Assembly (NCBI GenBank): GCA_007376285.1
Contig: VMFZ01000005.1
Location: forward strand, 699 to 64,698
Origin: Parcubacteria group bacterium Gr01-1014_17
GTDB lineage: Bacteria; Patescibacteriota; Minisyncoccia; Phycocordibacterales; UBA10002
Length of the DNA: 64,000 bases
Reading direction: 5' to 3'
Part shown: piece by piece, positions 5,909-58,429 of the stretch
How positions within the stretch are numbered: the stretch's first letter is position 1
How the letters are laid out: each line of letters starts with the position of its first letter
The notes under the pieces: model-generated
Told to the model about the DNA's origin: nothing
Seen by the model: the letters and a program-made list of their open reading frames with translations, nothing else
Databases searched by the model: none
Position numbers and translations under genes: made by a program

Positions 5909-6580
5909 ATGAAGTCTTTACTTGGAATTGCGGATTTTTTTGGACTTACAAAAAAGATCATTCGCACGCGAATAGATGCTTTTTTGCAGAAACACGCGAC
6001 AAACGAGCGGACGCTTGATGTGGGGGGAGGTTCTGGGCCGTACAAAAAGTATTTTCCTAACCGCGTGTGCATTGATAACGAGGCGGGCGAGGGGGTTGAT
6101 TTCGTTGGCGACGCCCACGATTTATCGCGCTTCCGTGACGGAGAGTTTGAGTGCGTTCTTTGTACTGAAGTGTTGGAACACTTGCATACGCCGCAGAAAG
6201 CGATTGATGAAATGCGGCGAGTACTTAAACCTGGAGGCACCATCATTTTGACCACCCGTTTTATTTTTCCACTCCACAACATTCCTGGCGACTATTTCCG
6301 CTTTACACGCTACGGTCTCGCACATCTTTTTCGCGATTGGACGAAAGTAGAAATAAAAGAAGAAGGCACAACGATGGAGGCACTTGCGGTATTATCTGAA
6401 CGGATTGGATTCCAGACGGAAACATTTTGGACAAAATGGCTGTCTGTTGACTGGCTTATTTTGGCGAAAATTATCCCGTGGTTTTCATTTTTGATTACCA
6501 AGGAATACGGCGAGGTGGGACGCAAAAATGAAACAAAAAGTATTTTAACGAGCGGATATTTCGTGATTGCGAGAAAGTAG
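5909..6580 (+). CDS. Class I SAM-dependent methyltransferase (Methyltransf_11-like)
   Basis: LDVGGGSGPY...CTEVLEHL...LKPGGTIILTT motifs. The ORF track starts at 5891; ATG 5909 is preferred because the upstream gene stops at 5901. Confidence 0.6.
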   Translation: MKSLLGIADFFGLTKKIIRTRIDAFLQKHATNERTLDVGGGSGPYKKYFPNRVCIDNEAGEGVDFVGDAHDLSRFRDGEFECVLCTEVLEHLHTPQKAIDEMRRVLKPGGTIILTTRFIFPLHNIPGDYFRFTRYGLAHLFRDWTKVEIKEEGTTMEALAVLSERIGFQTETFWTKWLSVDWLILAKIIPWFSFLITKEYGEVGRKNETKSILTSGYFVIARK

Positions 6581-7732
6581 TATAAGTTCGTCGGCAACAC
6601 GCGCAACCATTTCTACAGTAATGTCTTCGCTTTGGCGGCGCGCTTCGCGCGCGTTGTACACAGTATTGTCCAAGATACCGAGCGCGGGCTTTTCGCGTGG
6701 TGCGGCGACCGTGCGGTGGAACTTTCCCTGCGGCGGCTGGATGTTTTCATACATCGGTCCTACGATGTCTATAGTTGGCGTGCCAAACGCTTCCGCAATA
6801 TAGACCGGTCCCGTGTCTGCGCTGATAAAAAGCGAAAACGAAGCAATGATCGCTTTTAATTCTTCCAATGAAAAGCGGTTGAGCGTATTAAGCGCGCTCG
6901 TTTCTTTTTTCACGGCACGCATCATTTTTTCTACTTCCTGCGCGTCACTGCCAACACCCAAAACGAGAATGCGCCCGCCGTGCTTTTGCGCAAGGTAGTC
7001 GGCAACTGCCGCAAACTTCTCCGGCGCCCATCGTTTGATGGGATCGCCGCCAACACCTGGCAAAATGCCGACTATCACATCTCGTTCTGGGGCAATATTT
7101 TGTTTCTCAAAGAAAGCGTTTACGCTTGCTTTCGCTTCTGCGGTATAGGTGAGCCGTTTGGTCGTATCGTCACTTTTAATACCGATGGGCTCAAGGAGCC
7201 GCAGATATTCGCGTGGCACATAACGCTCATTATAATGGGGAATTGCAATAACGGCGCGCAAAAGTTTTTTGTAAGTGCGCGTCTCGTAGGGAGAGTACCC
7301 ACCGACAATTTTCGGCGCGGCAATTGCTTTCACTCCGCCAGCGATAAGGAGCGTAAGGCCGTAAAGCGATGGCAACGGAAGCACGCCAAAGTCGGCGTGC
7401 TCGCGCGCGAGGACGCGCGCGGCGCTCCAAAAACTTTTTCCGATGACGATATACTTATCCACCTCCGGATGCCCGTGCAAAAGTTTTTGATTAACCGCAT
7501 CGCCTAACACCACAAGTCGCGCATGCGGGAAGCGCTTCTTAATCGCGTGAAAAAGAGGTGTCGTGCACACCATGTCGCCGAGTTTTGCTCCCTGCAGAAT
7601 AGCAATCTTACTGGGGTTTTTGGGCGCGCGTCTGCGCGCGCCGAAAAACACGACATGCGCCGATGCGAGTAGAAAAAGTCCAGCGTTTTTAAGCCGTTCA
7701 ATAACGGCGCGCCGCCATTTGCGAAATGTCAT
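6545..7732 (-). CDS. Glycosyltransferase family 9 (ADP-heptose:acceptor heptosyltransferase-like)
   Basis: KIAILQGAKLGDMVCTTPLFHAIKKRFPHARLVVLG N-terminal signature of the RfaF/WaaC/WaaQ family. C-terminal ADTGPVYIAEAFGTPT motif. Confidence 0.65.
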   Translation of the reverse strand: MTFRKWRRAVIERLKNAGLFLLASAHVVFFGARRRAPKNPSKIAILQGAKLGDMVCTTPLFHAIKKRFPHARLVVLGDAVNQKLLHGHPEVDKYIVIGKSFWSAARVLAREHADFGVLPLPSLYGLTLLIAGGVKAIAAPKIVGGYSPYETRTYKKLLRAVIAIPHYNERYVPREYLRLLEPIGIKSDDTTKRLTYTAEAKASVNAFFEKQNIAPERDVIVGILPGVGGDPIKRWAPEKFAAVADYLAQKHGGRILVLGVGSDAQEVEKMMRAVKKETSALNTLNRFSLEELKAIIASFSLFISADTGPVYIAEAFGTPTIDIVGPMYENIQPPQGKFHRTVAAPREKPALGILDNTVYNAREARRQSEDITVEMVARVADELILLSRNHEISAR

Positions 7733-7788: not shown

Positions 7789-8655
7789 ATGAAAGAGAAA
7801 ATAATCGTGTTGGGCGCTGACCATAACGGAGTTGCGGTAAAAGCCGTTATTAAAGAACTCCTGAGTAAACTCGGATTTATTCCTATTGACCTTGGTCCGC
7901 ACACTGAGAGCGAGAAAGTTGATTATACGGATTATGCGCAAATGCTTGGGCATATCGTCAATAATGGCGATTCAACGCGAGGGATTCTTGTTTGCGGAAC
8001 GGGCGTCGGTATGAGTATCGTTGCTAACCGCTTTCCAAATGTGCGCGCCGCACTCGCGCACAGCGCGGAGGTAGCGCAAAAGACACGCGAGCACAACGAT
8101 GCGAATGTATTGTGTCTCGGCGCATGGGTGAACTCGCTTCCCGAGAACTTGCGCATTGTTCGTGCATGGCTTAATACTGAGTTTGGCGAAGGCAGACATG
8201 TGCGGCGGGTGGAAAAAACAAAAGAGCACTCGCGCGATAAGATTGTTTTTACAAACGGAATTTTTGATATTTTGCACAAAGGGCATATTGAACTCTTTAA
8301 ATTTGCAAAATCCCTAGGCGGGCGGCTTATTGTCGGAATCAATTCAGACCGCACGACTAAGTTGCTTAAAGGGAAAGGCAGACCCATCAATTCCGCGCAA
8401 GAAAGAAAAGCCACACTTGAAACCATACAATACATTGACCAAGTCGTTGTTTTTGACGACACAAAAACAATCGGCATTATCCAAGATGTGAAGCCGGATA
8501 TTGTGGTAAAAGGCGGAGAATGGACTTCTGCGGAAGTGCGACGGCGCGACAAAATTCCAGAAAAGATAGAAGTGCGAGTTTGCCCTTTGGTAATGCAGTC
8601 GTCCGGAATTAAATATTCTTCAACCAATGTTATTGAAAAAATCAAAAACAGATAA
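7789..8655 (+). CDS. Fusion: RpiB/LacAB-family sugar-phosphate isomerase (N-terminal) plus heptose-1-phosphate adenylyltransferase (RfaE/HldE domain II-like cytidylyltransferase fold, C-terminal)
   Basis: N-terminus GADHNG...ILVCGTGVGMSIVANR...GEGRHVRRV matches RpiB. C-terminus IVFTNGIFDILHKGHIELFKFAKSLGGRLIVGINSDRTTKLLKGKGRPINSAQER...VKGGEW matches HldE domain II. Confidence 0.7.
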   Translation: MKEKIIVLGADHNGVAVKAVIKELLSKLGFIPIDLGPHTESEKVDYTDYAQMLGHIVNNGDSTRGILVCGTGVGMSIVANRFPNVRAALAHSAEVAQKTREHNDANVLCLGAWVNSLPENLRIVRAWLNTEFGEGRHVRRVEKTKEHSRDKIVFTNGIFDILHKGHIELFKFAKSLGGRLIVGINSDRTTKLLKGKGRPINSAQERKATLETIQYIDQVVVFDDTKTIGIIQDVKPDIVVKGGEWTSAEVRRRDKIPEKIEVRVCPLVMQSSGIKYSSTNVIEKIKNR

Positions 8656-9565
8656 GCCGATTTTGGTTATTGGGGATGTCATTTTAGACATCTATCATTT
8701 TGGAGACCATCTTGCCGACTCCGAAGGAGTAGCAGTTGGGCGTGACAGAGAAACGCGCCACTCGTGGGGCGGGGCGGGACTTTTAGTGCGCAACCTTCTG
8801 GAGTTGGGACAAAAAGTATCTTTCATTTCTCTGGTAGGAGACGACCAATGGGGTGAATATGAGAAACAGTGGACGCACCGCAACTTGACGAAATATTTTG
8901 TGCGCGAACGCGTAAGAAAAACCGTCGTCAAAGAGCGGTTTGTGGTGGACGGTAAAAAAGTGTTTAAGTGGAATTCGTTAGAAGATAAAAGGACGAGCCC
9001 TGCGACCGGGAGGCGTATGCTCTCTTTGGTAAAAAAAATCCTTCCACAATGCAGGGTACTCGTCATCTCCGACTATCGGCACGGCCTTTTGAGCAGACAC
9101 CTTGCGACGCAACTGGTGACGCTTGCAAAAAAAACGGACATACCGGTTGTCGTTGATTCTCAGGTGTCGCAACGGGAGAGCAACCACCAGTGGTACGCTG
9201 GAGCCGATGTGTTTTGTTTGAATGAAGAGGAGGCGCGTTCCATTGAGCCTGCATTTGATGCGGAAAATATAGAGCGTTCGCTTCAGCAACTCTCCAAAAT
9301 TCTGGATAGTAAATATATTGTGGTAAAAAGAGGAGAACGCGGTTCGGTGGCACTTATATCCGGTGCATATATAATGTCGCTGCCGCACAAAGTCAAAGCG
9401 GTTGATTCGTGTGGTGCGGGAGATGCGTTTCTCGCGGCGCTTGCCTCGCGTGGATTTCCCCCCAACGAAGACGCACTTCGATTTGCTAACTTCTGGGCGG
9501 CGCTTTCAACCACCGTTATCGGCGCCGAACCGCCAAAATATGTGCAAAAATATGTACGGCATTGA
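8627..9565 (+). CDS. PfkB-family carbohydrate kinase (heptose 7-phosphate kinase, RfaE/HldE domain I-like)
   Basis: ILVIGDVILD N-terminus and the DSCGAGDAF PfkB signature. It overlaps the preceding adenylyltransferase gene by 29 bp. Confidence 0.65.
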   Translation: MLLKKSKTDKPILVIGDVILDIYHFGDHLADSEGVAVGRDRETRHSWGGAGLLVRNLLELGQKVSFISLVGDDQWGEYEKQWTHRNLTKYFVRERVRKTVVKERFVVDGKKVFKWNSLEDKRTSPATGRRMLSLVKKILPQCRVLVISDYRHGLLSRHLATQLVTLAKKTDIPVVVDSQVSQRESNHQWYAGADVFCLNEEEARSIEPAFDAENIERSLQQLSKILDSKYIVVKRGERGSVALISGAYIMSLPHKVKAVDSCGAGDAFLAALASRGFPPNEDALRFANFWAALSTTVIGAEPPKYVQKYVRH

Positions 9566-10643
9566 TATAAAAACATTGGACCAGTTTATTACTACCCCAC
9601 AGACGGAAAAAAGGCCGTGGGGTATTTTCAGCATGATTGCGGATGTGCCGGAATTCCGATTTGAGCGATGGGAAATGATTGCGGGAAAATCGGCTTCGTT
9701 TTTGGTTGGCGCGAAACGAGAGGCGACCATTTTTATTGAATCCGGCGCGCTTATTGTTGGAAAAGCGGAGATTCTTGAGCGGCAAGCAATTACTCTGGCG
9801 ACTAAAAAACGGCTCACGCTTCATGCGACTGTAGATACAGTCGCTTATGTGTTCCACGGTCCGCCAAGCGGAAAGGGCGGTTCTAGAAAGATATTTTGCA
9901 CAACTGACTTTCGCGATAAGTACTGGGGTACTATTGAAACAATTGTGAGTACTCCGGGGTATGCGGCAAAGCGGATGCTCGTGAAAAAAGGATGCGCCGC
10001 AAGTTTGGAGTATCATTGCAGAAAGATGGAAAGTTACTACATTCACTCCGGAAAATTGCTTCTTCGTTTGCGCGCCGGGCGCGGCGAGGACCGGTTTTTT
10101 GAAATGGAGGCCGGCGCCGCCGCGCTGATTCCGCCAGGGCTTATGCATCAGCGCGGCGGCAGAGAAGATGCGGTGATTATTGAGATTTCAACAAAAGACG
10201 AAGACAGCGACTCGTTTTTAGTAGAAGATGGGGCGAAACATCCGATGCCTAGACTATGCGCGGGCTTGCCCTCCGTAGCCTTGGCGAAGGAGGGGAAACG
10301 GATTTGTTTTGATATAGACGGCGTGCTATGCAATCAAGTGGAAGGGTTGGACTATCGCGAAGCAAAACCAAACCAAGAGGCGATTGCGCTAGTTAATAAA
10401 CTCTACGACGAAGGGCACACGATATACCTTTTCACCGCGCGTTTTATGGGGCGGAACAAAAATGATTGGAAAAAAGCGTACGAGGATGGGTATGTGTTTA
10501 CAAAAAAGCAACTTGAAAGGTGGGGCGTCAAATTCCACGACTTGTTTTTCGGCAAGCCAAACCTAGATATTATTATTGATGACCGTGCTGTTTTTTATAA
10601 ACCAGATTTACAACTCATTGAAAAAGAAATAAGAAAGAGGTAG
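9552..10643 (+). CDS. Double cupin (type II phosphomannose-isomerase-like) fused to a HAD-IIIA phosphatase (GmhB-like)
   Basis: RPWGIF cupin motif and a second cupin (LEYHCRKMESYYIHSGK) resembling the ManC C-terminal PMI domain. C-terminus ICFDIDGVLCN...IIIDDRA is HAD. The ORF track start at 9402 overlaps the upstream gene by 160 bp, so ATG 9552 is preferred. Confidence 0.55.
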   Translation: MYGIDIKTLDQFITTPQTEKRPWGIFSMIADVPEFRFERWEMIAGKSASFLVGAKREATIFIESGALIVGKAEILERQAITLATKKRLTLHATVDTVAYVFHGPPSGKGGSRKIFCTTDFRDKYWGTIETIVSTPGYAAKRMLVKKGCAASLEYHCRKMESYYIHSGKLLLRLRAGRGEDRFFEMEAGAAALIPPGLMHQRGGREDAVIIEISTKDEDSDSFLVEDGAKHPMPRLCAGLPSVALAKEGKRICFDIDGVLCNQVEGLDYREAKPNQEAIALVNKLYDEGHTIYLFTARFMGRNKNDWKKAYEDGYVFTKKQLERWGVKFHDLFFGKPNLDIIIDDRAVFYKPDLQLIEKEIRKR

Positions 10644-10709
10644 GATGCAGATAGATTGAAAAGTCGCCTCATCGGCGACTCGCCGAAGAGGCGAGAAAGG
10701 TCTTTGATT

Positions 10710-11384
10710 ATGAGCGAAAATGAATTGTTGCGAACAGTGTGTGCACAGAACAAGCGGTTGGCGGAACTAGGGCTTGTGATACTTACCGAAGGCAATGTGT
10801 CGCAAAGGCAAGATAGTGTAATGGCCATAAAACCGTCCGGTATCCCATACAACAGGCTCACTTCGGACTCCATAGTGATTGTTGGAATTGCAAGTGGTCA
10901 CATACTGATAAGCGAGTTTTCTCGCGCTCCCTCGGTTGACACACCAATTCATCTGGAAATATACCGGCGGTTTCCGGAAGTGGGCGGCATCGCGCATACG
11001 CATTCGCCGTATGCAACTGCATTCGCGCAAGCTGGACAGCCGATTCCGTGTTGTGGGACAACGCACGCTGATGCGTTTTTTGGGGAAGTGCCTGTAACGC
11101 GGATTCTGACCGAACAAGAAGTGGAGGGCGATTATGAACGGAATATTGGCGTACTCATTGCATCAATGCTCAAACCAGATGCTATACCTGCGATACTGAT
11201 GAATGGGCACGGCCCATTTACTGTCGGCAAAACGGCACAGGAGGCAGTTGATAATGCGTTGATTTTGGAAAAAGTTGCCATGTTGGCACTTGTGGGTCTG
11301 CAGCCACTTTACCTGCCTTCGTATTTGCAGAAAAAACATTTTTTGCGAAAGCACGGTCAGGCCGCCTCGTACGGCCAGCTATAG
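10710..11384 (+). CDS. Class II aldolase/adducin family protein (L-ribulose-5-P 4-epimerase / fuculose-P aldolase-like)
   Basis: GNVSQR...IKPSG...HTHSPYATAFAQAG...GHGPFTVGKT motifs of the AraD/FucA family. An upstream stem-loop and RBS favour ATG 10710 over the track start at 10656. Confidence 0.65.
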   Translation: MSENELLRTVCAQNKRLAELGLVILTEGNVSQRQDSVMAIKPSGIPYNRLTSDSIVIVGIASGHILISEFSRAPSVDTPIHLEIYRRFPEVGGIAHTHSPYATAFAQAGQPIPCCGTTHADAFFGEVPVTRILTEQEVEGDYERNIGVLIASMLKPDAIPAILMNGHGPFTVGKTAQEAVDNALILEKVAMLALVGLQPLYLPSYLQKKHFLRKHGQAASYGQL

Positions 11385-11398
11385 GATTCTCTTTCACA

Positions 11399-11432
11399 AA
11401 GCGTCTCCCTACGGGAGACGCTTTTCTTTTGT
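11399..11432 (+). terminator. Rho-independent terminator (GCGTCTCCC-TAC-GGGAGACGC followed by a T-tract)
   Basis: A perfect 9 bp GC-rich stem followed by TTTTCTTTTG, directly after the aldolase stop codon. Confidence 0.6.
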
Positions 11433-11457
11433 ATGTTTTCTGCTATTATGAAAAACC

Positions 11458-12198
11458 ATGAAATTATTTCTTGATTCCGCAAATTTGGGAGAAATCAAAG
11501 AGGCGCTTGAAAGCGGGCTCATTTTAGGCATTACCACAAATCCGTCGCTTCTTTCAAAAGAGCCGAAAGGAAGCTACCTCACGCATATGAAAGACATCGT
11601 TTCGCTCCTTAAAAAAGACGGAAGAAATCTTTCTTTAAGCGTTGAAGTATTTTCCGAGAAGCCGGAGGAAATGTTCAAACAAGCCAGAGAATTTAAAAAA
11701 GCGCTGAAATACAAAAACTTAGCGATAAAGATTCCCGTCAATTATAAAGGGCAAAGTTATCTAGGTGTTGTTCGGCAGTTGAGCGATGAAGGTGTTATGG
11801 TAAATTGCACGGCGTGTATGACACCCCTCCAACTCTCTATGGCCGCCGCGGCAGGCGCACGATTCGTGAGTTTATTTTACAATCGCGTACGCGACGGGGC
11901 GAAAGACACAGAATATGAAGCAGTACGAAAAGAAATGCTGGAAAAGAAAGACATTGAGCAAGCCGATTTTGAACCGAATAATGTGCTCCGCGAGGCGCGC
12001 GCGCTTCTCGCGCCGTACCCCAAAGCGGAAATCATTGCCGGCAGTATTCGCTCGGTATTGGATATTAAAGAGGCGGGGCTTGCCGGCGCGCATATCGTGA
12101 CTGCATCTTTTAAGACGCTCAAAGCCGCGCTCACGCACTTCAAAACCGACCACGCCGTAGGTAATTTTCTGAACGATTTCAAGCAGTGGTGTGCGTAG
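11458..12198 (+). CDS. tal: Transaldolase / fructose-6-phosphate aldolase family (short TalC/MipB type)
   Basis: MKLFLDSANLGEIKEA...GITTNPSLL N-terminal signature. The ~245 aa length is typical of the short transaldolase subfamily. Confidence 0.7.
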   Translation: MKLFLDSANLGEIKEALESGLILGITTNPSLLSKEPKGSYLTHMKDIVSLLKKDGRNLSLSVEVFSEKPEEMFKQAREFKKALKYKNLAIKIPVNYKGQSYLGVVRQLSDEGVMVNCTACMTPLQLSMAAAAGARFVSLFYNRVRDGAKDTEYEAVRKEMLEKKDIEQADFEPNNVLREARALLAPYPKAEIIAGSIRSVLDIKEAGLAGAHIVTASFKTLKAALTHFKTDHAVGNFLNDFKQWCA

Positions 12199-12977: not shown

Positions 12978-14363
12978 ATGAACCACATACTCGTTTCAGC
13001 GTCAACGGGCGCGTTTGTCCGTAATTTTTTGCGCGGGGGTTTTCTCGATGAAGCCCGACGCACCGGTCTTTTGCTGGTTTTTGTAGTGCCTCCAGAAAAA
13101 ATTGACGCGTATAAAAAAGAATTCGGAGCGCATGGGGTTAGTTTTGAAATAGCGCCGCGGCAAGATTTCTCGTTTTTGGAGTCCTTGTTCAAAACACTAG
13201 AAAAGTGGAGCGTGCATACCCGTTTCATGTTTTTACATCATATGTTTTTTCTCCGGCGGTGCAGTTCGCAAGACGCGTTCTCTGTTCGTATTATTCTTTT
13301 TGCCATACGGATGCTTTTATGGTTTTTGGGGCAATTCCGTTTGTTCCGCGCGTTCGTTCGCTTGGCATATGCGGCTCTGCCTGCGTCGTCCGTGCGCGAA
13401 TTTCTTAAAACCCGCCAGCCCACACTCGTGTTTTGTCCCGCTGTTCTTTACGGTTCAGAGTGGCAATTCATTAAAGAGGCGAAAAAATTAGGCATCAAAA
13501 CAGTCGGCATGCTTTCCAGTTGGGATAATTTTTATTCCAAAACATTTCTGCGCACGCTTCCGGATTATTTGTTGGTGCAAAATGAATTACTCAAACGGCA
13601 AGCGGTAAGTTTTGCGGATTATCCGGAAAAACAAATTCGTGTTGTTGGCGCGCCGCAATATGATCGCCACATTATGCGAATGGGGGTTATAGGAAGGAAC
13701 GAGTTCTTTCGGAGTATTGGTGCGGACCCGGTGAAAAAGCTCATATTGTATGCATTTTCTGGAAAGATAAGCGAAGCCGTTGATAATGAAATGCTCGCCG
13801 TTCTTCATCGCATACTCACAGAAAGCGGATTGGCGCAGGAAGCGCAGGTGCTCGTGAGACCATACCCGAAACGCAATTTTTCTCCGCGGAAAGCGTCATG
13901 GGCAAGGCATACTTTTGGGTTTTTAGTGGAAGAATCATCAACGGAAATTGGCGCAGGGAGAGACAAATGGGAGATGGATGAAAACGCTCTTCGCTTTATG
14001 GCGAACTCGATTGCGCATGCCGATATCGTGATAACCGCATGCTCCACCTTTTTTGTAGAAGCTACGATTTTCGGAGTGCCACTAATCGGTATCTCTTTTG
14101 ACGGCGCGTTGAAACTGGACAAATGGAATTCAACACGCCGTTTTCGCACATGGGAGCATATTGCAGATTTGGAACGGACTTGGGGCGTGTGGTTTGTGGA
14201 AAGCGAAGCGGAACTTACGAAAGCACTTCAAGCATATCTTTCTTCGCGGGCATTGCACGCTGAAGGGCGCAAGTGCATTATAGATGAGCAGCTTGCCGGT
14301 CTTGGTGGCAAAGCGGCGGAGGCGATCGCTCATTCGCTTAAAGATATTCTTAGTGTTGTATGA
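12978..14363 (+). CDS. GT-B-fold transferase, TagB/TagF (CDP-alditol phosphotransferase, Glyphos_transf)-like; paralog 1 of 5
   Basis: Shares with four other ORFs in the window the block SWDN...(V)VG-PQYD, the KLILYAFSG segment and the C-terminal ITACSTFFVEATIFGVPLIGISFD motif, which resembles the TagF LITDYSSvxFD region. Confidence 0.4.
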   Translation: MNHILVSASTGAFVRNFLRGGFLDEARRTGLLLVFVVPPEKIDAYKKEFGAHGVSFEIAPRQDFSFLESLFKTLEKWSVHTRFMFLHHMFFLRRCSSQDAFSVRIILFAIRMLLWFLGQFRLFRAFVRLAYAALPASSVREFLKTRQPTLVFCPAVLYGSEWQFIKEAKKLGIKTVGMLSSWDNFYSKTFLRTLPDYLLVQNELLKRQAVSFADYPEKQIRVVGAPQYDRHIMRMGVIGRNEFFRSIGADPVKKLILYAFSGKISEAVDNEMLAVLHRILTESGLAQEAQVLVRPYPKRNFSPRKASWARHTFGFLVEESSTEIGAGRDKWEMDENALRFMANSIAHADIVITACSTFFVEATIFGVPLIGISFDGALKLDKWNSTRRFRTWEHIADLERTWGVWFVESEAELTKALQAYLSSRALHAEGRKCIIDEQLAGLGGKAAEAIAHSLKDILSVV

Positions 14364-16594: not shown

Positions 16595-17341
16595 ATGAAT
16601 ATACCGCATTTTAAGCAGTATGCAAATGATTTGCAGGTGATTGAAAAAGCATTTGGCCATCTTCCTGATTTTGATGTGAATGCTGTGTTTGCCACATGGG
16701 AGGCGGGAAATCTATTTCTTCCTGAATGGAAAAACAGTAAGTTATTTGGTTGGTGGATGAATGTAGCTGCGCATATGAGCGTTGCCGCTGTGCTTGGCTA
16801 TAAGTTGTCTTTATTTATGAAAGATTCTCTTGCGAAAGAAGGGTTTACACCGAAAGATATTATAGAAGCACTACTTGTACATGATTGGGCGAAACGTTTG
16901 GAATCTGATGTACTGGCAGATGGCGCAGAAATGGTAATGCGTGAATCAGAGATGCATCATAAGACTCTTTTGCAGTGGTTTCCGGAAAAAGTTACCGAGC
17001 TCACTGCCGCTACGGGTGACAATGGGGTACAAATTACGGACACGCGCCAATTTACCTCTGGCGAGAAAATAATCTTTTACAGCGATTATTGCACTTCTAG
17101 TTGCCGCATCGTTCCTTTCGTAAAACGACTTGAAGAATTACTGCCGCATTTCGCGCGTGGCGGGCGGTACGAAAAAGCGGATGCATACTACAAAAAACAC
17201 TACAGGATGAGCCATAATGAAAAAATAACACAATTACTTGCACCGATTGAGGCGGAGTTTATTGCACTAACAGGAGGCGCAAAAAAAAACTTCCCAGCAT
17301 GTCTCATTCCTGATGAGTTTTGCGAAAATACATATGAATAA
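16595..17341 (+). CDS. Hypothetical protein (possible HD-like motif)
   Basis: No confident family assignment. LLVHDWAKR could be an HD motif. It lies 22 bp from the divergent nucleotidyltransferase start. Confidence 0.3.
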   Translation: MNIPHFKQYANDLQVIEKAFGHLPDFDVNAVFATWEAGNLFLPEWKNSKLFGWWMNVAAHMSVAAVLGYKLSLFMKDSLAKEGFTPKDIIEALLVHDWAKRLESDVLADGAEMVMRESEMHHKTLLQWFPEKVTELTAATGDNGVQITDTRQFTSGEKIIFYSDYCTSSCRIVPFVKRLEELLPHFARGGRYEKADAYYKKHYRMSHNEKITQLLAPIEAEFIALTGGAKKNFPACLIPDEFCENTYE

Positions 17342-19306: not shown

Positions 19307-20560
19307 ATGAAAAATAGGATATGCAGAGTATGCAAAAGCACTGCTGTCAAGCCGTTTCTTGACTTGGGAAATCAGCCACACGGCGACAGTTTTATCGCAA
19401 CGAAGGATTTGAATGAGCACGAGCCACACTATCCTCTCCGCGCATGTTTTTGTTTGGATTGCACTACTGCGCAGATTGATTATACAGTTCCGAAAGAAGT
19501 AATGTTTGAGTATTATCCGTATGTATCAGGTACTACACGAATGCTCAAGGAGCATTTTGAAAAAAGCACTGAGCGGCTTATTAAGAAACTAAAATTAAAA
19601 AAAGGGGACTTCGTCGTAGATATAGGCTCAAACGACGGCACATGGCTTGAGTGTTATAAAAATACCGGCATCCGCTTTTTGGGGATTGACGGTGCGAAAA
19701 ATCTTGCAAAGATTGCAAACGCTAAAGGATTGGAAACATGGCCTAAGTTTTTTAACAAAAAAATCGCGCAAGAAGTAATTGCAAAAAAAGGAGGCGCAAA
19801 TCTCGTAACCGCAGCTGGCGTTTTCTTTCATCTGGAAGAACTACATTCCGTAACGGAAGGAATTGCAGAGCTTATCGGAGGCACGGGAGTACTCTGCGTT
19901 CAGGCGATTTATTTGGGAGAAATGGTGAATATCGGCGCGTTTGACCAGATTTACCATGAGCATCTAACTTATTGGACATTGCGTTCAATTGAACATTTGC
20001 TTGGGTATTATGGACTGGAGGTATTTTCGGTGGAGTTTTTCCCGATCCACGGCGGCACGATTGAATATCTGATTGCGAAGAATGGCGTGCGCAAAATTGA
20101 ACCGTCTGTTGCGGCAATGAGGAGCAAGGAAAAGAAACTCCGACTCGGAGATATTAAGACCTTTGAAAAGTTCGGTGCGCGCGTATGGGAGATGAAAAAA
20201 GAACTTATACCGATTCTTCGGAAATATAAAAAAAAAGAAAAGCGGATATTCGCACTTGGCGCGCCGATTAAGGGTTCTACGCTCCTAAATTCGTTCGGCA
20301 TCGGCACTGAACTGGTGGAATGCGCTGTGGAAGTAAACCCGCTTAAAATAGGGAAGTATATTCCTGGCGTTCGCATTCCTATTAAAGATGAGCGGACAGC
20401 CGGCGAACCGGACGCGTACCTAGTTTTACCGTGGAATTTCCTACCAGAACTTCTACGAAAAATGGAGTCGTATATAAAGGGCGGCGGCGCATTTATCGTA
20501 CCCGTGCCGAAACCAATGGTGATTGATAAAAATAATTATCACAAATTTACAAAGAAATGA
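19307..20560 (+). CDS. NDP-sugar C-methyltransferase family (TylCIII/TcaB9-like: zinc-ribbon, MT core and C-terminal domain)
   Basis: 417 aa. N-terminal CRVC...CLDC four-cysteine motif, a central SAM-MT region (VVDIGSNDG) and a C-terminal domain. The architecture matches C3/C5 sugar methylases. Confidence 0.5.
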   Translation: MKNRICRVCKSTAVKPFLDLGNQPHGDSFIATKDLNEHEPHYPLRACFCLDCTTAQIDYTVPKEVMFEYYPYVSGTTRMLKEHFEKSTERLIKKLKLKKGDFVVDIGSNDGTWLECYKNTGIRFLGIDGAKNLAKIANAKGLETWPKFFNKKIAQEVIAKKGGANLVTAAGVFFHLEELHSVTEGIAELIGGTGVLCVQAIYLGEMVNIGAFDQIYHEHLTYWTLRSIEHLLGYYGLEVFSVEFFPIHGGTIEYLIAKNGVRKIEPSVAAMRSKEKKLRLGDIKTFEKFGARVWEMKKELIPILRKYKKKEKRIFALGAPIKGSTLLNSFGIGTELVECAVEVNPLKIGKYIPGVRIPIKDERTAGEPDAYLVLPWNFLPELLRKMESYIKGGGAFIVPVPKPMVIDKNNYHKFTKK

Positions 20561-21939: not shown

Positions 21940-22901
21940 TGCCTGTTCGTTTTGGAATCATCGGGTGTTCGCGGGTGGCGCAGCGGCGATTTTTGCCCGC
22001 CCTCGCCGCTTCGGAACGCGCGGCGCTTTCTTTTGTCGGCAGTCGAGATGCGGAGAAGGCAAAAAAATATGCAAATGAATTTCACGCTGCGCATTTTGGA
22101 AATTACGAAGATGTTCTCGCGAGCAAGAATGTTGATGCTGTGTACATTTCAACTCCGCCAACTTTGCATTACGAGTGGATTGTGAAATCCGCGCGCGCTG
22201 GTAAGCATATTATCTGCGAGAAGCCCGCGTGTATGGACTATGAATCGGCGCACCGAGCAGTTCAAATATGCAGAGAAGCGGGCGTGCGCCTTATGGAAAA
22301 TTACGCCTTTTTATACCACCCACAACACGCCGCCGCGCGCGATATTATGTCAGAAATCGGAAGCATAAAACGAATAAGCGCGCGCTATCTTTATCCGTTT
22401 CCGCATGGAGGAGATATCCGATTTAATCCTGCATTGGGCGGCGGCGTGTTCCACGATTCGTTTGGATATCCGCTAGCGCTCGCACGATTTTACTTCGGAC
22501 AATTTCCGGAATCAATATCATGCGTGCAAACAATGGACGCGCATCGCGGTATTGATACTGCAGCGGAAATTGTTTTACATTTCTCACGAAATCGCGCGCT
22601 TGATGGAAAGGTGCAAATGGGAAGTGCCGAATACGCATCGTCGTATACTTTACAAGGAGATAGCGGAAGTGTGGAAATAGTGCGTGCATTTGCCGTTGAT
22701 GCCGATAAACCCGCGGAAATCTTGCGTACAATCAATGGCGAGATTGAAAAGATTCAGATACCACCAGCAAGCCAGTTTCAGCTCGCGCTTGACGATTTCT
22801 GCGATGTTGTAAGAGGGAAAACACAAAAGGATTTTGATGGGGAACTTATTGCACGCGCAAAAATTAAAGATGCCGCAGAGCAGTGTCTTATGAGAAAATA
22901 A
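21939..22901 (+). CDS. Gfo/Idh/MocA-family NAD(P)-dependent oxidoreductase
   Basis: VRFGIIGCSRVAQRRFLPAL...EKP motif region and a C-terminal alpha/beta domain. Confidence 0.65.
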   Translation: MPVRFGIIGCSRVAQRRFLPALAASERAALSFVGSRDAEKAKKYANEFHAAHFGNYEDVLASKNVDAVYISTPPTLHYEWIVKSARAGKHIICEKPACMDYESAHRAVQICREAGVRLMENYAFLYHPQHAAARDIMSEIGSIKRISARYLYPFPHGGDIRFNPALGGGVFHDSFGYPLALARFYFGQFPESISCVQTMDAHRGIDTAAEIVLHFSRNRALDGKVQMGSAEYASSYTLQGDSGSVEIVRAFAVDADKPAEILRTINGEIEKIQIPPASQFQLALDDFCDVVRGKTQKDFDGELIARAKIKDAAEQCLMRK

Positions 22902-23868
22902 TTTGCGAGCCGGGTGCATTTATTTTTACCGGCAGAATATCTTTTTTAGGAAAGGTCTTTGTAAGTTTCGCGCGCGCGTACGGCGGAGCGAAAAAAAGAA
23001 CATATCCTCCTCCGCCCGCGCCAAGTAGCTTACCACCCCATGCACCAGCCTCTAATCCTTTTTGATATAGACTATCTATGGTCGGATTGGACACTCCTCC
23101 GTCAAGCGTGCGTTTTATTTTCCACGCATCGTGGAGCTGTTCTCCAAATAGTTGGAGCGGCTTATTTTTTGTCAGAATGTCATATCCTCTGTACGCCATT
23201 TCTTTGAGGGTGCGTAGCGCATCGGTATTTTGGTCTATGCGTTTTATTTGGTGTGCGGTTACAGCAGATGCTCTTCGCATAATGCCAGTATAGACGAGAA
23301 AAAGATGACTCTCAAAATCAGCAAGCCGTTTGTGAGAGATGGATACGGGGCGCACTAGGAAATCTTTTTCTGTTTTGAATTCAATCAAATTGAAACCTCC
23401 ATACGCCGCGGTAACTTGATCCTGACAACCAACTTTATCCTTTACTTTGTGTTTTTCAATAAAGATTGCCTCGCGTGCCAGTTTTTCCGCCGTTACTATT
23501 TTTTTATTAAAACAGTGTAGAGCATGAAGTACCGATACAGTTAGCGAGGAAGATGAGCCGAGCCCACTGAATGCGTGAGTATCAAAAATACTATGTAGCG
23601 CGACATCTTTTGCAACCCCCGTGTGTTTAAGGCACTCTCTAAACACATTATGTTGTATATGATGCACTGTTTTTGCCAATTCCACACTGCTGTATGAAAG
23701 GCGGATTGCATAATCAAACATATGGCTCAAAAATCGGTTTGCGGTAACATACGCATATTTATCAATCGCCGTTGCCAACACAGCGCCCCCTTCCTTAAGA
23801 AAGTATTCGGGATGGTCGGTACCTCCGCCGAAAAAACTTATGCGGAGTGGAGTGCGCGCAATAATCAT
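22888..23868 (-). CDS. hddA: GHMP kinase, D-glycero-alpha-D-manno-heptose 7-phosphate kinase (HddA)-like
   Basis: MIIARTPLRISFFGGGTDHPEYF N-terminus is the HddA hallmark. GHMP motif SGLGSSSS. Sits in an operon with an HddC-like nucleotidyltransferase. Confidence 0.65.
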   Translation of the reverse strand: MIIARTPLRISFFGGGTDHPEYFLKEGGAVLATAIDKYAYVTANRFLSHMFDYAIRLSYSSVELAKTVHHIQHNVFRECLKHTGVAKDVALHSIFDTHAFSGLGSSSSLTVSVLHALHCFNKKIVTAEKLAREAIFIEKHKVKDKVGCQDQVTAAYGGFNLIEFKTEKDFLVRPVSISHKRLADFESHLFLVYTGIMRRASAVTAHQIKRIDQNTDALRTLKEMAYRGYDILTKNKPLQLFGEQLHDAWKIKRTLDGGVSNPTIDSLYQKGLEAGAWGGKLLGAGGGGYVLFFAPPYARAKLTKTFPKKDILPVKINAPGSQIIFS

Positions 23869-23875
23869 GATTCGA

Positions 23876-24595
23876 TTACATTACCACAGGGTACATCTTA
23901 CGCGCTATTCTGTAACGTTCGGGTACCCCGATGTCAATAAGAATCTCGTCTGTTCTGAAACCATAACAATGTCGACGGAAAAGGGTGGGGAAGAATTCAT
24001 CTTCAAGTGAAAACGCGCTTTTATCCGGAAATAGTTTCGCGATTTTGCGGTTGACGATGTAGATTCCGGCATTCAAATGAAATGTTCCGTTGGCATCTGC
24101 GTCGGTTTTTTTTCTCCAGCCAGTAACACGCTGCGTCTCATCCATCTCCACTATGTTTCCACTGTCCCCTCTGTACGATTTGGTAAGCGCCATCGATAAG
24201 ATTCCTTCTTTTTCATTGTGGAAAGCACATAGTGCGTTAAAGTCAGGACTGAAGACCATATCTCCATTCATAATGAAAAATCGCTCTGCGCCGTTCGTAA
24301 AATGGAGCGCCCGTTTAACAGCGCCGCCAGTGCCAAGCGGTTCATCTTCTTCGGAAAATACGACGCGGTAGCCGCGCTCTTCACAATGTGCTTTCACCTG
24401 TTCTTTGAGATATCCGACGCTTAAAATGATTTTCTCAAAACCCGCTTTCGTAAGCATTGTCATAATCATATCCAAAAGCGTTTTATCGCCCATCGAGGCG
24501 AGTATTTTTGGCAGGTCAACAAAAACACTGCGCAAACGCGTACCAAGACCGCCGCACAAAACAATGATAGGTATATTTCGCAGTTCGTTAGACAT
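23876..24595 (-). CDS. hddC: D-glycero-alpha-D-manno-heptose 1-phosphate guanylyltransferase (HddC)-like nucleotidyltransferase
   Basis: IPIIVLCGGLGTRLRSV...LPKILASMGDKTLLD...LGTGGAV NTP-transferase motifs. Adjacent to the HddA-like kinase. Confidence 0.55.
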   Translation of the reverse strand: MSNELRNIPIIVLCGGLGTRLRSVFVDLPKILASMGDKTLLDMIMTMLTKAGFEKIILSVGYLKEQVKAHCEERGYRVVFSEEDEPLGTGGAVKRALHFTNGAERFFIMNGDMVFSPDFNALCAFHNEKEGILSMALTKSYRGDSGNIVEMDETQRVTGWRKKTDADANGTFHLNAGIYIVNRKIAKLFPDKSAFSLEDEFFPTLFRRHCYGFRTDEILIDIGVPERYRIARKMYPVVM

Positions 24596-25526
24596 TTGAA
24601 TACTGGTTGTTTTTGAGAATCGTAAAACCTTTGATGAGTTCCTCTATACCACGGTCCAGATTCCATTCTGTGTTGAATCCGGCGGCGGCAATGCGCGCAT
24701 TGGAGACGATATAATCGCGCTTATCTGGGTCTTCGCCAATTGGAGCTTCAATATAGGTAAACTTTGGCAGATGTTTTTTAATAATCGCACACAACTCAAG
24801 TTTTGAGAGGTTGGCGTCATCAAGCCCCACATTGTAGGGCCTGCCTCTCATTTTTTGAAAGTTTTCTATGCCGTGGATAAATACTCGCACGACATCCTGG
24901 ATATGTATGTAGTTTCGCTTGAAGTGCCATTCAAAAATAAGCATTGCGCGATCATTCACGGCGCGGTACACGAAATCGTTGACCAGCAAATCCAATCGCA
25001 TTCTTGGCGACATTCCAAATACGGTCGCAAGGCGGAAGCTTAACCCATTTTCGCGCGCCAACGCCACTTTCTCGGCCTTTACTTTGGTGACACCGTAGAA
25101 AGAGATTGGGCGGAGTGGCGACTTTTCAGTACAGAACTTATTTTTTTCGCCAATGCCATATCCGCTGTTGGTAATGGGGATGAGCATGCGCTGGCTCTTG
25201 CTCATAAGTTTTCCGAGCAGGGCGACTGCCCCAAAGTTGGTTGTTTCCGCCGCGATTTTGTTTTGCTCGCAAAGCGGCGCTCCCACGAGCGCCGCGAGCG
25301 GAATAATAATGTCGGCTTTTTCTACGAGTGGCTTGATTGTATTTTTGTCGCGGCAGTCACCACGCACAATGTTGAATGTTTTATACTGGCAACAATCGGT
25401 CAAACTGTTCTGGCGGTACATAAAGTTGTCCAACACGGTAACCACATAACCACTTTCAAGAAGCGCCGGGGTCAATACCGAGCCGATGTACCCCGCGCCG
25501 CCGGTGATGAGTATTTTTTGGATCAT
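24588..25526 (-). CDS. NAD-dependent epimerase/dehydratase (extended SDR; candidate NDP-heptose modifying enzyme)
   Basis: KILITGGAGYIGS and YGVTKVKAEK. First gene of the minus-strand hddA/hddC operon. Confidence 0.6.
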   Translation of the reverse strand: MIQKILITGGAGYIGSVLTPALLESGYVVTVLDNFMYRQNSLTDCCQYKTFNIVRGDCRDKNTIKPLVEKADIIIPLAALVGAPLCEQNKIAAETTNFGAVALLGKLMSKSQRMLIPITNSGYGIGEKNKFCTEKSPLRPISFYGVTKVKAEKVALARENGLSFRLATVFGMSPRMRLDLLVNDFVYRAVNDRAMLIFEWHFKRNYIHIQDVVRVFIHGIENFQKMRGRPYNVGLDDANLSKLELCAIIKKHLPKFTYIEAPIGEDPDKRDYIVSNARIAAAGFNTEWNLDRGIEELIKGFTILKNNQYSNV

Positions 25527-58330: not shown

Positions 58331-58429
58331 GCGGTTGGTCTTTCTGTTTGAGGTTTTTTGTAAAGGTTCTTTTCCGGTAGTATTCTCACATAACTTTTCT
58401 TGTTTCGCAAGTGTTCTATAATTCACCAT
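58331..58429. promoter_or_regulatory. Divergent promoter region between the class B radical SAM gene (-) and the NeuB-family gene (+)
   Basis: ~100 bp AT-rich spacer between divergent ATGs. No motif verified. Confidence 0.3.

What the first reader, a model, noticed from the sequence alone, without database searches (positions are those of the whole stretch)
7789..10643. Non-canonical nucleotide-heptose module with an RpiB-adenylyltransferase fusion and a cupin-HAD fusion, and no SIS-type GmhA
The canonical ADP-heptose route uses GmhA (SIS isomerase), HldE kinase, GmhB phosphatase and HldE adenylyltransferase. Here the kinase (PfkB) and adenylyltransferase domains are on separate genes. The adenylyltransferase is fused to an RpiB-family isomerase. 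The HAD phosphatase is fused to a type-II phosphomannose-isomerase-like double cupin. Converting sedoheptulose-7-P to D-glycero-D-manno-heptose-7-P is chemically the same aldose-ketose step as F6P to Man6P, so a PMI-type cupin or the RpiB domain could stand in for GmhA. That would be a non-orthologous displacement.
Basis: partly seen in the sequence, partly recalled or inferred. Interest (0 to 1): 0.65.

Follow-up and report, generated by a model that had tools for sequence, protein, structure and literature searches.

The report
Heptose-type sugar cassette with cupin isomerase
These genes belong to a six-gene cassette, shared by tiny CPR bacteria and many marine phages, that most likely makes an ADP-heptose-like activated sugar using a metal-binding cupin enzyme in place of the usual isomerase GmhA, which would be a previously undescribed way to start this pathway.

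Summary
Window 7789-10643 encodes an RpiB+HldC-like nucleotidyltransferase fusion, a separate HldA-like PfkB kinase, and a bicupin+HAD phosphatase fusion. No SIS/GmhA gene lies anywhere in the 64 kb.

The unit is larger than reported. An AraD-like epimerase (10710-11384) and a transaldolase (11458-12198) are part of it. The same set (RpiB-NT, PfkB, AraD-like, cupin, TAL, HAD) recurs in about 20 non-viral metagenome/genome loci and in 50 IMG/VR viral contigs, at GC 23-60%.

The cupin is the best candidate to replace GmhA; the RpiB domain is not. Its motifs match D-lyxose isomerase. It is fused independently to two different HAD families, to PfkB, and to PfkB+NT. It travels with NT, kinase and HAD where RpiB is absent (cyanophages S-CAM1 and S-SM2, and a Saccharibacteria locus). 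Ordinary bacteria carry GmhA at the equivalent position and never this cupin.

RpiB, TAL and AraD-like look like bona fide enzymes. Either they feed sedoheptulose-7-P, or they build a C8 sugar as LmbR does in lincomycin biosynthesis. This is unresolved.

No enzyme activity was tested, and the rest of the genome could not be searched. I rate this a new variant of a known pathway, of moderately high interest.

The parts
6545..7732 (-). GT9 (heptosyltransferase-family) glycosyltransferase, divergently transcribed. Likely user of the activated sugar.
   Evidence: Pfam Glyco_transf_9 1.4e-16. NCBIfam heptosyltransferase III and II models score 82 and 78 bits, both below cut-off. GT9 genes also lie next to the cassette in L007, L008, L088, L089 and L166.
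7789..8232 (+). RpiB domain of the fusion protein (residues 1-148).
   Evidence: LacAB_rpiB 2.8e-47. TIGR01120 scores 142.1 bits, above the 138.65 cut-off. Best PDB match is Clostridium thermocellum RpiB 3HE8, 1.4e-33. D11, H12, C69, T71, H102, N103, R136, H137 and R140 are invariant across 12 fusions.
8233..8655 (+). HldC/HldE-domain-II-like nucleotidyltransferase domain of the fusion (residues 149-288).
   Evidence: CTP_transf_like 1.6e-21. rfaE_dom_II scores 134.5 bits (cut-off 181.5). Best PDB match is 5x9q 'putative cytidylyltransferase', 3.9e-25. The HxGH motif (H163, G165, H166) is conserved, as is the C-terminal G-x-K-Y-S-[ST]-T motif, which resembles the HENase STT motif described in PMC11461863.
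8627..9565 (+). PfkB-family sugar-phosphate kinase (HldA-like). Overlaps gene 1 by 29 nt.
   Evidence: PfkB 1.2e-29. rfaE_dom_I scores 151.5 bits (cut-off 345), against 79 bits for ribokinase. Best PDB match is 4E84, D-beta-D-heptose 7-phosphate kinase, 8.5e-16.
9552..9896 (+). N-terminal cupin-like barrel of the bicupin. Poorly conserved, without metal ligands, and lineage-specific.
   Evidence: AF2 model. Alignment A2 shows no conserved His/Glu motif here. This half is absent from the single-cupin viral and marine homologues.
9897..10256 (+). C-terminal catalytic cupin. Proposed ketose/aldose phosphate isomerase (GmhA's role).
   Evidence: Conserved motifs [E/H]153-x-H155-x2-K158-x-E160, PPGLMH199, E211-I-S and D216/D218/D220. 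These align with the D-lyxose isomerase 3kmh motifs HFHWRKRE, PPGLYH and EVS..DDD. Of 33 family members, 19 hit Lyx_isomer and 16 hit MannoseP_isomer in Pfam. Fusion partners elsewhere are listed.
10296..10643 (+). HAD-superfamily phosphatase domain (EcbF/BcbF, 1xpj type). Proposed distal-phosphate phosphatase (GmhB's role).
   Evidence: PDB 9iqw 2.1e-14 and 1xpj 1.2e-10. TIGR01689 4.3e-5. Sequence motifs F-D-I-D-G-V (DxD), T-A-R, G-K-P and D-D-R are seen. In most relatives it is a separate gene lying after TAL.
10710..11384 (+). AraD-like class II aldolase-fold enzyme (L-ribulose-5-P 4-epimerase-like). The ORF can also start at 10656.
   Evidence: Aldolase_II 2.4e-44. PRK08193 scores 237 bits (cut-off 257) and TIGR00760 221 bits (cut-off 389). 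E. coli AraD 1JDI 2.6e-55, with the C-terminal YGQ retained. Present in 15 of 19 longer non-viral loci and 44 of 50 viral loci.
11458..12198 (+). Short-type transaldolase (TalC/FSA subfamily, transaldolase-type residues).
   Evidence: TAL_FSA 5.2e-38. TIGR00875 scores 126 bits (cut-off 246). Best PDB matches are T. maritima, B. subtilis and T. acidophilum transaldolases, about 1e-28. The Schiff-base Lys (IKIP), the Glu (SVEV) and the Phe (SLF-YNR) align. Present in 16 of 19 non-viral and 46 of 50 viral cassette loci.

Best explanation
Genes 7789-12198 form one operon-like cassette that makes a nucleotide-activated higher sugar by the ADP-heptose logic.

Proposed steps, all inferred:
1. The transaldolase builds a 3S,4R ketose phosphate, most likely sedoheptulose-7-P from fructose-6-P plus erythrose-4-P.
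2. The metal-dependent C-terminal cupin, a D-lyxose/mannose-isomerase relative, converts this to the manno-configured aldose phosphate. This is the step normally done by the SIS enzyme GmhA.
3. The PfkB kinase phosphorylates the anomeric O1.
4. The HAD domain fused to the cupin removes the distal phosphate.
5. The HldC-like domain fused to RpiB adds the nucleotide.
6. A GT9 glycosyltransferase uses the product in the surrounding glycopolymer locus.

RpiB and the AraD-like enzyme are accessory pentose-phosphate interconverting enzymes that feed the transaldolase step.

Shown here: the domain content, the conservation of the cassette, the fusions, and the absence of GmhA from the window. Inferred: every catalytic assignment, the substrate, and the identity of the product.
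For: **Domain calls.**

**Cassette conservation.**
- Five gene families recur in 15-18 of 19 longer loci (synteny).
- Among 50 viral contigs with the fusion, 47 have the cupin, 46 TAL, 44 AraD-like, 44 HAD and at least 38 PfkB, in a fixed order.

**Cupin linked to the pathway by four independent fusions.**
- Cupin + HAD-IIIA: the window and P0121-P0177.
- Cupin + HAD_2: Saccharibacteria locus L008.
- PfkB + cupin: P0343, P0352, P0374.
- PfkB + NT + cupin: P0327, followed two genes downstream by a stand-alone HAD gene and with no GmhA on the 7.6 kb contig.

**Core set without RpiB.** NT, kinase, HAD and cupin occur together in cultured cyanophages S-CAM1 and S-SM2.

**GmhA versus cupin.**
- 20 loci with an unfused HldC-like gene carry GmhA nearby and none carries the cupin.
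- Cassette loci carry the cupin. GmhA-like genes are seen in only 2 of 27 non-viral and 0 of 50 viral cassette loci.

**Cupin chemistry.** Its metal, Lys, Glu and Asp motifs align with D-lyxose isomerase 3kmh. Pfam Lyx_isomer or MannoseP_isomer hits occur in 19 and 16 of 33 members. From general knowledge, these enzymes make 2,3-cis (manno/lyxo) aldoses from 3S ketoses, the same stereochemistry as GmhA.

**Kinase and NT.** Both are closest to HldA and rfaE domains.

**Users of the product.** There are two GT9 genes in the window.
Against: - No activity was measured.
- The cupin scores below every curated Pfam cut-off. Foldseek returns only generic bicupins.
- Three loci hold both the cupin and a GmhA-like SIS gene: L166, L007 and L103. 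The two may therefore not be interchangeable.
- Under a plain S7P model, RpiB and AraD-like have no necessary step, yet phages, which have tight genomes, keep them in 44-50 of 50 loci.
- The kinase, NT, AraD-like and TAL proteins all fall below NCBIfam equivalog cut-offs, so their substrates may differ from the canonical ones.
- The rest of the MAG could not be searched for GmhA, transketolase or Rpe.
Confidence: 0.58

Rival explanations
1. The cassette makes a nucleotide-activated octose, or another non-canonical higher sugar, by the lincomycin logic. RpiB, with AraD-like in most variants, supplies a pentose-5-P acceptor. The transaldolase adds a C3 unit to give an octulose-8-P, as LmbR does. 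The cupin isomerises it to the octose-8-P. The PfkB kinase, HAD and NT then activate it.
For: - A dedicated transaldolase is present in nearly every cassette, including phage copies.
- RpiB is physically fused to the last enzyme of the pathway, which argues that RpiB is a pathway member.
- Precedent: LmbR uses F6P or S7P as donor and R5P as acceptor, followed by an isomerase, kinase, phosphatase and nucleotidyltransferase, giving a GDP-octose (PMC5854111; PMC4351081).
- This scheme gives both isomerases a step.
- TAL, AraD-like, kinase and NT all score below equivalog cut-offs.
Against: - Minimal versions without TAL or RpiB (S-CAM1, S-SM2, L165, L166) imply that the cupin's substrate is a common host metabolite such as S7P.
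- R5P is available in every cell, so RpiB is no more 'needed' here than under the heptose model.
- GT9 and the HldA/HldC resemblance point to heptose.
- AraD-like is absent from some otherwise complete cassettes (L003, L092, L177-L180).
Confidence: 0.2
2. A canonical GmhA elsewhere in the genome (or in the phage's host) makes heptose-7-P. The cupin is a tailoring enzyme: a second isomerase giving another C2 configuration, an epimerase, or a non-sugar cupin. RpiB, TAL and AraD-like are ordinary pentose-phosphate genes that are merely co-located or co-transferred.
For: - Cupin and GmhA-like genes co-occur in L166, L007 and L103.
- RpiB passes its equivalog cut-off, and AraD-like and TAL keep their canonical motifs.
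- The 30 viral loci with an unfused NT have neither GmhA nor the cupin nearby, so a missing neighbouring isomerase is not in itself informative.
Against: - Four independent fusions tie the cupin to enzymes acting at the sugar-phosphate stage.
- The GmhA-like genes in L103 and L007 sit beside NeuB or CMP-transferase genes, which suggests another pathway.
- No GmhA was found in 762 kb of cassette-bearing viral sequence or in the 64 kb window.
- The cupin has isomerase-type motifs.
Confidence: 0.14
3. The RpiB domain, not the cupin, is the sedoheptulose-7-P isomerase.
For: RpiB-family enzymes are aldose-ketose isomerases with some breadth: ribose-5-P, allose-6-P, galactose-6-P and erythrulose-4-P families all score against this domain. 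The domain is fused to the NT.
Against: - It scores as a standard RpiB (TIGR01120 above cut-off). Its best structural relatives are R5P isomerases.
- From general knowledge, RpiB handles 3R ketoses, whereas S7P is 3S.
- RpiB is absent from S-CAM1, S-SM2, L008, L165 and L166, which keep NT, kinase, HAD and cupin.
Confidence: 0.06

Closest known systems
ADP-D-glycero-beta-D-manno-heptose pathway with separate HldA and HldC (GmhA, HldA, GmhB, HldC; Burkholderia type)
   Same: The same four-step logic. The kinase's best solved relative is HldA 4E84, and the NT's is 5x9q, with rfaE domain II as best family. A HAD phosphatase is present, and GT9 transferases lie nearby.
   Different: There is no SIS GmhA; a LyxI-like cupin sits in its place. 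The phosphatase is of the EcbF/BcbF (1xpj) type, not GmhB. The NT is fused to RpiB and the cupin to the HAD. A transaldolase and an AraD-like gene are added. All scores are below equivalog cut-offs.
Lincomycin/celesticetin octose route (LmbR transaldolase, LmbN isomerase, LmbP kinase, LmbK phosphatase, LmbO guanylyltransferase)
   Same: As far as I know, this is the only characterised NDP-sugar pathway that starts with a dedicated transaldolase followed by an isomerase, kinase, phosphatase and NT.
   Different: The downstream enzymes come from different families. From general knowledge, LmbN is GmhA-like, LmbP is GHMP-like and LmbO is an NTP_transferase. The Lmb cluster has no RpiB or AraD, and it is a Streptomyces antibiotic cluster rather than a CPR or phage glycan locus.
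[not shown]
   Same: Cupin fold with shared His/His(Glu)/Glu/His, Lys and acidic motifs. Weak Pfam hits occur across the family. These enzymes perform aldose-ketose isomerisation giving manno/lyxo configuration.
   Different: Sequence similarity is marginal (E 5e-4 to 3kmh). The presumed substrate here is a phosphorylated C7 or C8 sugar. The Parcubacteria form has an extra, non-catalytic N-terminal barrel.
Cyanomyovirus 'LPS-like' gene set (S-CAM1 SXBG_00217-00220; S-SM2 SSM2_200-211)
   Same: Homologous NT, kinase, HAD and cupin genes lie side by side. An epimerase, a carbamoyltransferase and glycosyltransferases are nearby, as in the window.
   Different: There is no RpiB fusion and no adjacent TAL; the nearest cyanophage talC matches to the cassette TAL were found elsewhere in other cyanophage genomes (e.g. 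position about 20 kb in S-ShM2 and S-RIM14). The HAD is annotated 'phosphoheptose isomerase' and the cupin 'cysteine dioxygenase' in the records.

Membership tests
ADP-heptose (NDP-beta-D-manno-heptose) biosynthesis module | SIS-type sedoheptulose-7-P isomerase GmhA | tested here: not met
   No hit in the 64 kb window with E. coli GmhA or with a 22-sequence GmhA HMM (best E 1.7).
ADP-heptose (NDP-beta-D-manno-heptose) biosynthesis module | HldA / HldE-domain-I heptose-7-P kinase | tested here: inconclusive
   rfaE_dom_I is the best family but scores 151.5 bits against a 345 cut-off. The best PDB match is HldA 4E84, 8.5e-16.
ADP-heptose (NDP-beta-D-manno-heptose) biosynthesis module | GmhB-type HAD heptose-1,7-bisphosphate phosphatase | tested here: inconclusive
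   A HAD domain with a DxD motif is present. It belongs to the EcbF/BcbF (1xpj, 9iqw) group. E. coli GmhB finds nothing.
ADP-heptose (NDP-beta-D-manno-heptose) biosynthesis module | HldC / HldE-domain-II heptose-1-P nucleotidyltransferase with HxGH and C-terminal STT motifs | tested here: inconclusive
   rfaE_dom_II scores 134.5 bits against a 181.5 cut-off. HxGH and K-Y-S-[ST]-T are conserved. The spacing differs from the (F/L)xxGxSTT motif quoted in PMC11461863.
ADP-heptose (NDP-beta-D-manno-heptose) biosynthesis module | Product is ADP/NDP-D-glycero-beta-D-manno-heptose | not testable with these tools
   Needs enzyme reconstitution and mass spectrometry or NMR.
RpiB ribose-5-phosphate isomerase | Family score above cut-off, and catalytic Cys/Thr, His-Asn, Asp-His and C-terminal Arg residues present | tested here: met
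   TIGR01120 scores 142.1 bits against 138.65, and PRK05571 scores 166.9 against 135. C69, T71, H102, N103, D11, H12, R136 and R140 are invariant in 12 fusions.
D-lyxose isomerase / PMI-type cupin isomerases | Pfam family score above gathering threshold | tested here: not met
   For the window protein, MannoseP_isomer scores 20 bits (cut-off 23.6) and Lyx_isomer is not reported. Across the family, 19 and 16 of 33 members give weak hits.
D-lyxose isomerase / PMI-type cupin isomerases | Metal-binding His/His/Glu/His plus the Lys and acidic residues of the active site | tested here: met
   [E/H]153, H155, K158, E160, H199, E211 and D216/218/220 are conserved. They align to 3kmh HFHWRKRE, PPGLYH and EVS..DDD.
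L-ribulose-5-phosphate 4-epimerase (AraD) | Equivalog score and AraD-specific motifs | tested here: inconclusive
   TIGR00760 scores 220.8 bits against 389.1, and PRK08193 scores 237.3 against 257. E. coli AraD 1JDI gives 2.6e-55 with HTHS, GTTHAD and the C-terminal YGQ aligned.
Transaldolase (short TalC/FSA subfamily) | Pfam TAL_FSA, the Schiff-base Lys, and transaldolase-type Glu and Phe rather than the Gln and Tyr of FSA | tested here: met
   TAL_FSA scores 131.5 bits against a cut-off of 27. The alignment to 1VPX and 3R8R shows IKIP, SVEV and SLF-YNR. The TAL-versus-FSA residue rule is from general knowledge. The NCBIfam equivalog TIGR00875 is not reached (126 against 246).
Lincomycin-type NDP-octose pathway | Dedicated transaldolase plus GmhA-like isomerase, GHMP-type kinase, GmhB-like phosphatase and NTP_transferase | tested here: not met
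   Only the transaldolase is shared. The other four enzymes belong to other families. The window does hold a GHMP kinase and an NTP_transferase at 22888-24595, but these are not in the cassette.

The most novel reading that the evidence does not exclude
The cassette is a self-contained, horizontally mobile route to a sugar that host metabolism does not provide, for example an NDP-octose or an unusual heptose epimer. It would be built from pentose phosphates by AraD-like, RpiB and the transaldolase, then isomerised by a new class of cupin sugar-phosphate isomerase. Large marine phages and CPR bacteria would use it to decorate virions, DNA or cell envelopes. If so, what marine virus studies count as a 'phosphoheptose isomerase' auxiliary gene may partly be the phosphatase of this pathway.
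Probability: 0.2. Interest if true: 0.85.

Novelty: new variant of a known kind. Interest (0 to 1): 0.64.

Why it matters
**A new start to the heptose pathway.** If the cupin really does GmhA's job, the first committed step of nucleotide-heptose synthesis has a second, unrelated solution. Homology searches for GmhA miss it. This matters for surveys of which organisms and viruses can make ADP-heptose-type immune agonists (the Tang et al. 2024 study, as summarised in PMC11461863). It also matters for metabolic reconstructions of CPR bacteria.

**A distinct viral module.** The cassette is on at least 50 viral contigs, and its four-gene core is in cultured cyanophages, directly upstream of a tail-fibre gene in S-CAM1. 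That points to virus-encoded glycan synthesis and gives a tractable system for experiments.

**Likely misannotations in phage genomes.** In S-SM2, two CDSs named 'phosphoheptose isomerase' are HAD phosphatases, and a 'cysteine dioxygenase' is the candidate isomerase.

Tried and rejected
- **Scan of genome contigs.** It gave only three full-length fusions among species-representative genomes. Synteny therefore had to come from metagenome and viral contigs.
- **Whole-genome search for GmhA, transketolase, Rpe or a second Rpi/TAL.** This was not possible for the source MAG, nor for the 930 kb contig behind L003, because only flanks of up to 10 kb can be fetched.
- **Literature searches.** Searches for Parcubacteria + heptose, and for cupin + sedoheptulose-7-P isomerase, found nothing relevant. 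The primary LmbR paper (PMC3486926) is not held.
- **FSA-type aldolase using free dihydroxyacetone.** Rejected, because the aligned residues are transaldolase-type.
- **The GmhA-like genes in L103 and L007 as refutation.** Judged weak, because they sit beside NeuB/KdsC-like or CMP-transferase genes.
- **A specific step for the AraD-like enzyme.** I considered C4 epimerisation of Xu5P to L-Ru5P, or of a heptulose. No evidence discriminates between them.

Full report
**Source and observation.** The window is a contig of the CPR bacterium 'Parcubacteria group bacterium Gr01-1014_17'; protein P0001 is 100% identical to the window's fusion protein.

- Gene 1 (7789-8655) is an RpiB domain plus a cytidylyltransferase-like domain (Pfam 2.8e-47 and 1.6e-21). 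The RpiB half passes NCBI's RpiB equivalog cut-off. The second half is closest to HldE domain II but scores below its cut-off.
- Gene 2 (8627-9565) is a PfkB kinase closest to HldE domain I and to the solved heptose-7-P kinase HldA.
- Gene 3 (best start 9552, end 10643) gave a confident AF2 model (pLDDT 89.5): two cupin barrels followed by a small HAD-like domain. The HAD half matches PDB 9iqw and 1xpj and, weakly, the EcbF/BcbF 'capsule biosynthesis phosphatase' family.
- The genes overlap by 29 and 14 nt, which suggests translational coupling.
- No SIS/GmhA gene exists in the 64 kb, either by single-sequence search or by a profile built from 22 GmhA-like sequences (best E 1.7).

**The unit is larger than reported.** Immediately downstream lie an AraD-like class II aldolase-fold gene (10710-11384) and a short-type transaldolase (11458-12198).

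- I searched the window proteins by tblastn against 27 loci that carry the RpiB-NT fusion, and clustered all ORFs of 19 longer loci. Five families travel together: the fusion, PfkB, the cupin (with or without HAD), TAL and AraD-like. They occur in 15-18 of the 19 loci. No transketolase or Rpe recurs.
- In most relatives the cupin is a single barrel, equivalent to the window's C-terminal barrel, and the HAD is a separate gene after TAL.
- GC content of these loci ranges from 23% to 60%, so the cassette is horizontally mobile.

**The cassette is common in viruses.**

- A scan of IMG/VR found at least 50 contigs with a full-length fusion (49-57% identity), some 157-284 kb long. Of these, 47 have the cupin, 46 TAL, 44 AraD-like, 44 HAD and at least 38 a recognisable PfkB, in the fixed order RpiB-NT, PfkB, AraD-like, cupin, TAL, HAD.
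- Several marine metagenome loci are these same contigs; for example L093 is L184.
- The flanks of one 171 kb contig hit phage PhoH, an exonuclease, phage glycosyltransferases and phage-only families, so it is a genuine phage.
- None of the 80 viral loci has a GmhA-like ORF.
- Cultured cyanomyoviruses lack the RpiB fusion but carry the core. S-CAM1 has carbamoyltransferase, NT, a hypothetical protein, 'phosphoheptose isomerase', 'cysteine dioxygenase', an epimerase and then a tail fibre gene. S-SM2 has a similar set plus a class II aldolase-family gene.
- The two S-SM2 'phosphoheptose isomerase' proteins carry the DxDxT HAD motif, are 39-45% identical to the window's HAD half, and do not match the GmhA profile. 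The 'cysteine dioxygenase' shares the cassette cupin's motifs at 36% identity.

**Which enzyme replaces GmhA?** The evidence favours the cupin.

- *Motifs.* The C-terminal barrel has conserved residues [E/H]153-x-H155-x2-K158-x-E160, PPGLMH199, E211 and an Asp cluster. A profile of the family aligns these to HFHWRKRE, PPGLYH and EVS..DDD of D-lyxose isomerase 3kmh (E 5e-4), and more weakly to cupin-type phosphoglucose isomerase. Lyx_isomer and MannoseP_isomer are the specific Pfam families hit most often across members, in 19 and 16 of 33. From general knowledge, these enzymes give manno/lyxo aldoses from 3S ketoses, which is the stereochemistry of the GmhA reaction and of any transaldolase product.
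- *Fusions.* The cupin is fused to HAD-IIIA in Parcubacteria, to an unrelated HAD_2 phosphatase in a Saccharibacteria locus that lacks RpiB and AraD-like (L008), to PfkB (P0343, P0352, P0374), and to PfkB+NT (P0327). The gene for P0327 is followed two genes downstream by a stand-alone HAD gene on its contig. With kinase, phosphatase and NT accounted for, the isomerase is the one missing activity.
- *Distribution.* Twenty loci with an unfused HldC-like gene from ordinary bacteria have GmhA nearby and never the cupin. Cassette loci have the cupin and almost never GmhA.
- *RpiB.* It scores as a standard RpiB with all catalytic residues, and it is dispensable in S-CAM1, S-SM2, L008, L165 and L166.

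**What remains open.**

- Three loci contain both the cupin and a GmhA-like gene. In L103 and L007 that gene sits beside NeuB/KdsC-like or CMP-transferase genes and may serve another pathway. In L166 it sits with a GHMP kinase and a HAD, which looks like a GDP-heptose branch, next to PfkB-cupin and GT9.
- The roles of RpiB, AraD-like and TAL are not settled. All three keep canonical catalytic motifs. TAL has transaldolase-type residues and is closest to bona fide transaldolases. AraD-like is similar to E. coli AraD (2.6e-55), including the C-terminal YGQ.
- Versions of the pathway without these three genes exist in cyanophages and other contigs. That suggests the cupin's substrate is an ordinary metabolite (S7P), and that the trio boosts its supply in hosts with poor pentose-phosphate flux.
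- Against this, phages retain the trio almost without exception, and RpiB is fused to the last enzyme. The one characterised NDP-sugar pathway with a dedicated transaldolase, lincomycin's LmbR route, uses ribose-5-P as acceptor to make an octose. I therefore keep an NDP-octose or unusual-sugar rival at about 0.2.

**Context in the window.** The whole 64 kb is a glycopolymer locus. It holds two GT9 genes, several GT1/GT2/GT4 genes, three TagF-like glycerophosphotransferases, a carbamoyltransferase, an ABC exporter, many SDR enzymes, methyltransferases, radical-SAM enzymes, a TPP-dependent E1-like pair, and a weak HddA/HddC-like pair. A NeuB-cupin fusion at 59487-61025 carries a paralogue of the cassette cupin. 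This mirrors the SIS-HAD-NeuB arrangement in L103 and hints that this lineage uses cupin isomerases where others use SIS enzymes.

**Comparison and verdict.** The module works like the split HldA/HldC ADP-heptose pathway, but it fails the defining GmhA feature and falls below equivalog thresholds for the kinase and NT. I file it as a new variant of that pathway rather than a member. I found no description of a cupin-type heptose isomerase, of the RpiB-NT fusion, or of this cassette in the searchable literature. The summary of Tang et al. 2024 lists only NT-only, kinase-NT and isomerase/kinase/NT enzymes. All catalytic assignments are inferences from sequence, fusions and synteny.

Noticed in passing
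window 59487-61025 (+): NeuB-family synthase fused to a C-terminal cupin. This cupin is a paralogue of the cassette cupin (28% identity over 102 aa, same YHxxKxES / PxGxxH / EIST..DS motifs). Locus L103 instead has SIS_2, a KdsC-like HAD and NeuB as separate genes. This may be a second case of a cupin replacing an SIS isomerase.
   Followed up: partly
window 22888-25526 (-): GHMP kinase and NTP_transferase whose best NCBIfam families are HddA and HddC (GDP-heptose route), at 142 and 138 bits, far below cut-off. An SDR epimerase lies next to them. No isomerase or phosphatase of their own is nearby, so they might share the cupin-HAD.
   Followed up: partly
L247 (Synechococcus phage S-SM2, NC_015279 146703-161089) and L248 (S-CAM1, NC_020837 170827-183156): CDSs annotated 'phosphoheptose isomerase' (SSM2_207 and SSM2_210; by position also SXBG_00218) are about 105 aa HAD-type proteins with a DxDxT motif, not SIS/GmhA. 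The 'cysteine dioxygenase' CDSs (SSM2_211, SXBG_00217) belong to the cassette cupin family. Marine virome papers treat 'phosphoheptose isomerase' as a well-characterised auxiliary gene (PMC9238414; bioRxiv 10.1101/2024.05.16.594516). I could not check whether their PHROG is this HAD.
   Followed up: partly
window 1-64000: The entire window is one glycopolymer locus. It contains a second GT9 (46386-47588), TagF-like glycerophosphotransferases (38064-40762, 49350-50705), a carbamoyltransferase (40773-42566), an ABC exporter (47320-49353), a sugar C-methyltransferase (19307-20560), a TPP E1-like pair (25633-27491), a radical SAM/SPASM gene (28293-29267) and a B12-radical SAM gene (56348-59032).
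   Followed up: partly
P0005, P0006, P0055: Longer variants of the fusion (441-469 aa) carry a third domain, PF06574 (FAD_syn). Some cassettes (L087, L093, L171) also have a second stand-alone HldC-like NT gene nearby.
   Followed up: no
L165 4144-5907; L166 350-1675: Triple fusion PfkB + CTP_transf_like + cupin (587 aa), followed two genes downstream by a small HAD gene, with an unannotated 332 aa gene in between. Separately, a PfkB + cupin fusion (441 aa) sits next to a GT9-GT1 fusion. In L166 a GHMP kinase, an SIS_2 gene and a HAD lie 6 kb downstream.
   Followed up: partly
window 12978-14363, 16595-17341, 33668-35269, 36852-37643, 45034-46389: ORFs of 248-533 aa inside the glycan locus with no Pfam hit at the thresholds used.
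   Followed up: no
Genome-contig scan: Only 3 of the 80 best loci among species-representative genomes carry the full RpiB-NT fusion. They are labelled Woesearchaeota, Acidobacteria UBA9620 (a 3.5 kb contig) and a Pelagibacteraceae single-cell genome. By contrast, the protein database lists over a hundred fusions, the named ones from Parcubacteria-type bins. The labels of those three contigs may reflect mis-binning or viral DNA.
   Followed up: no
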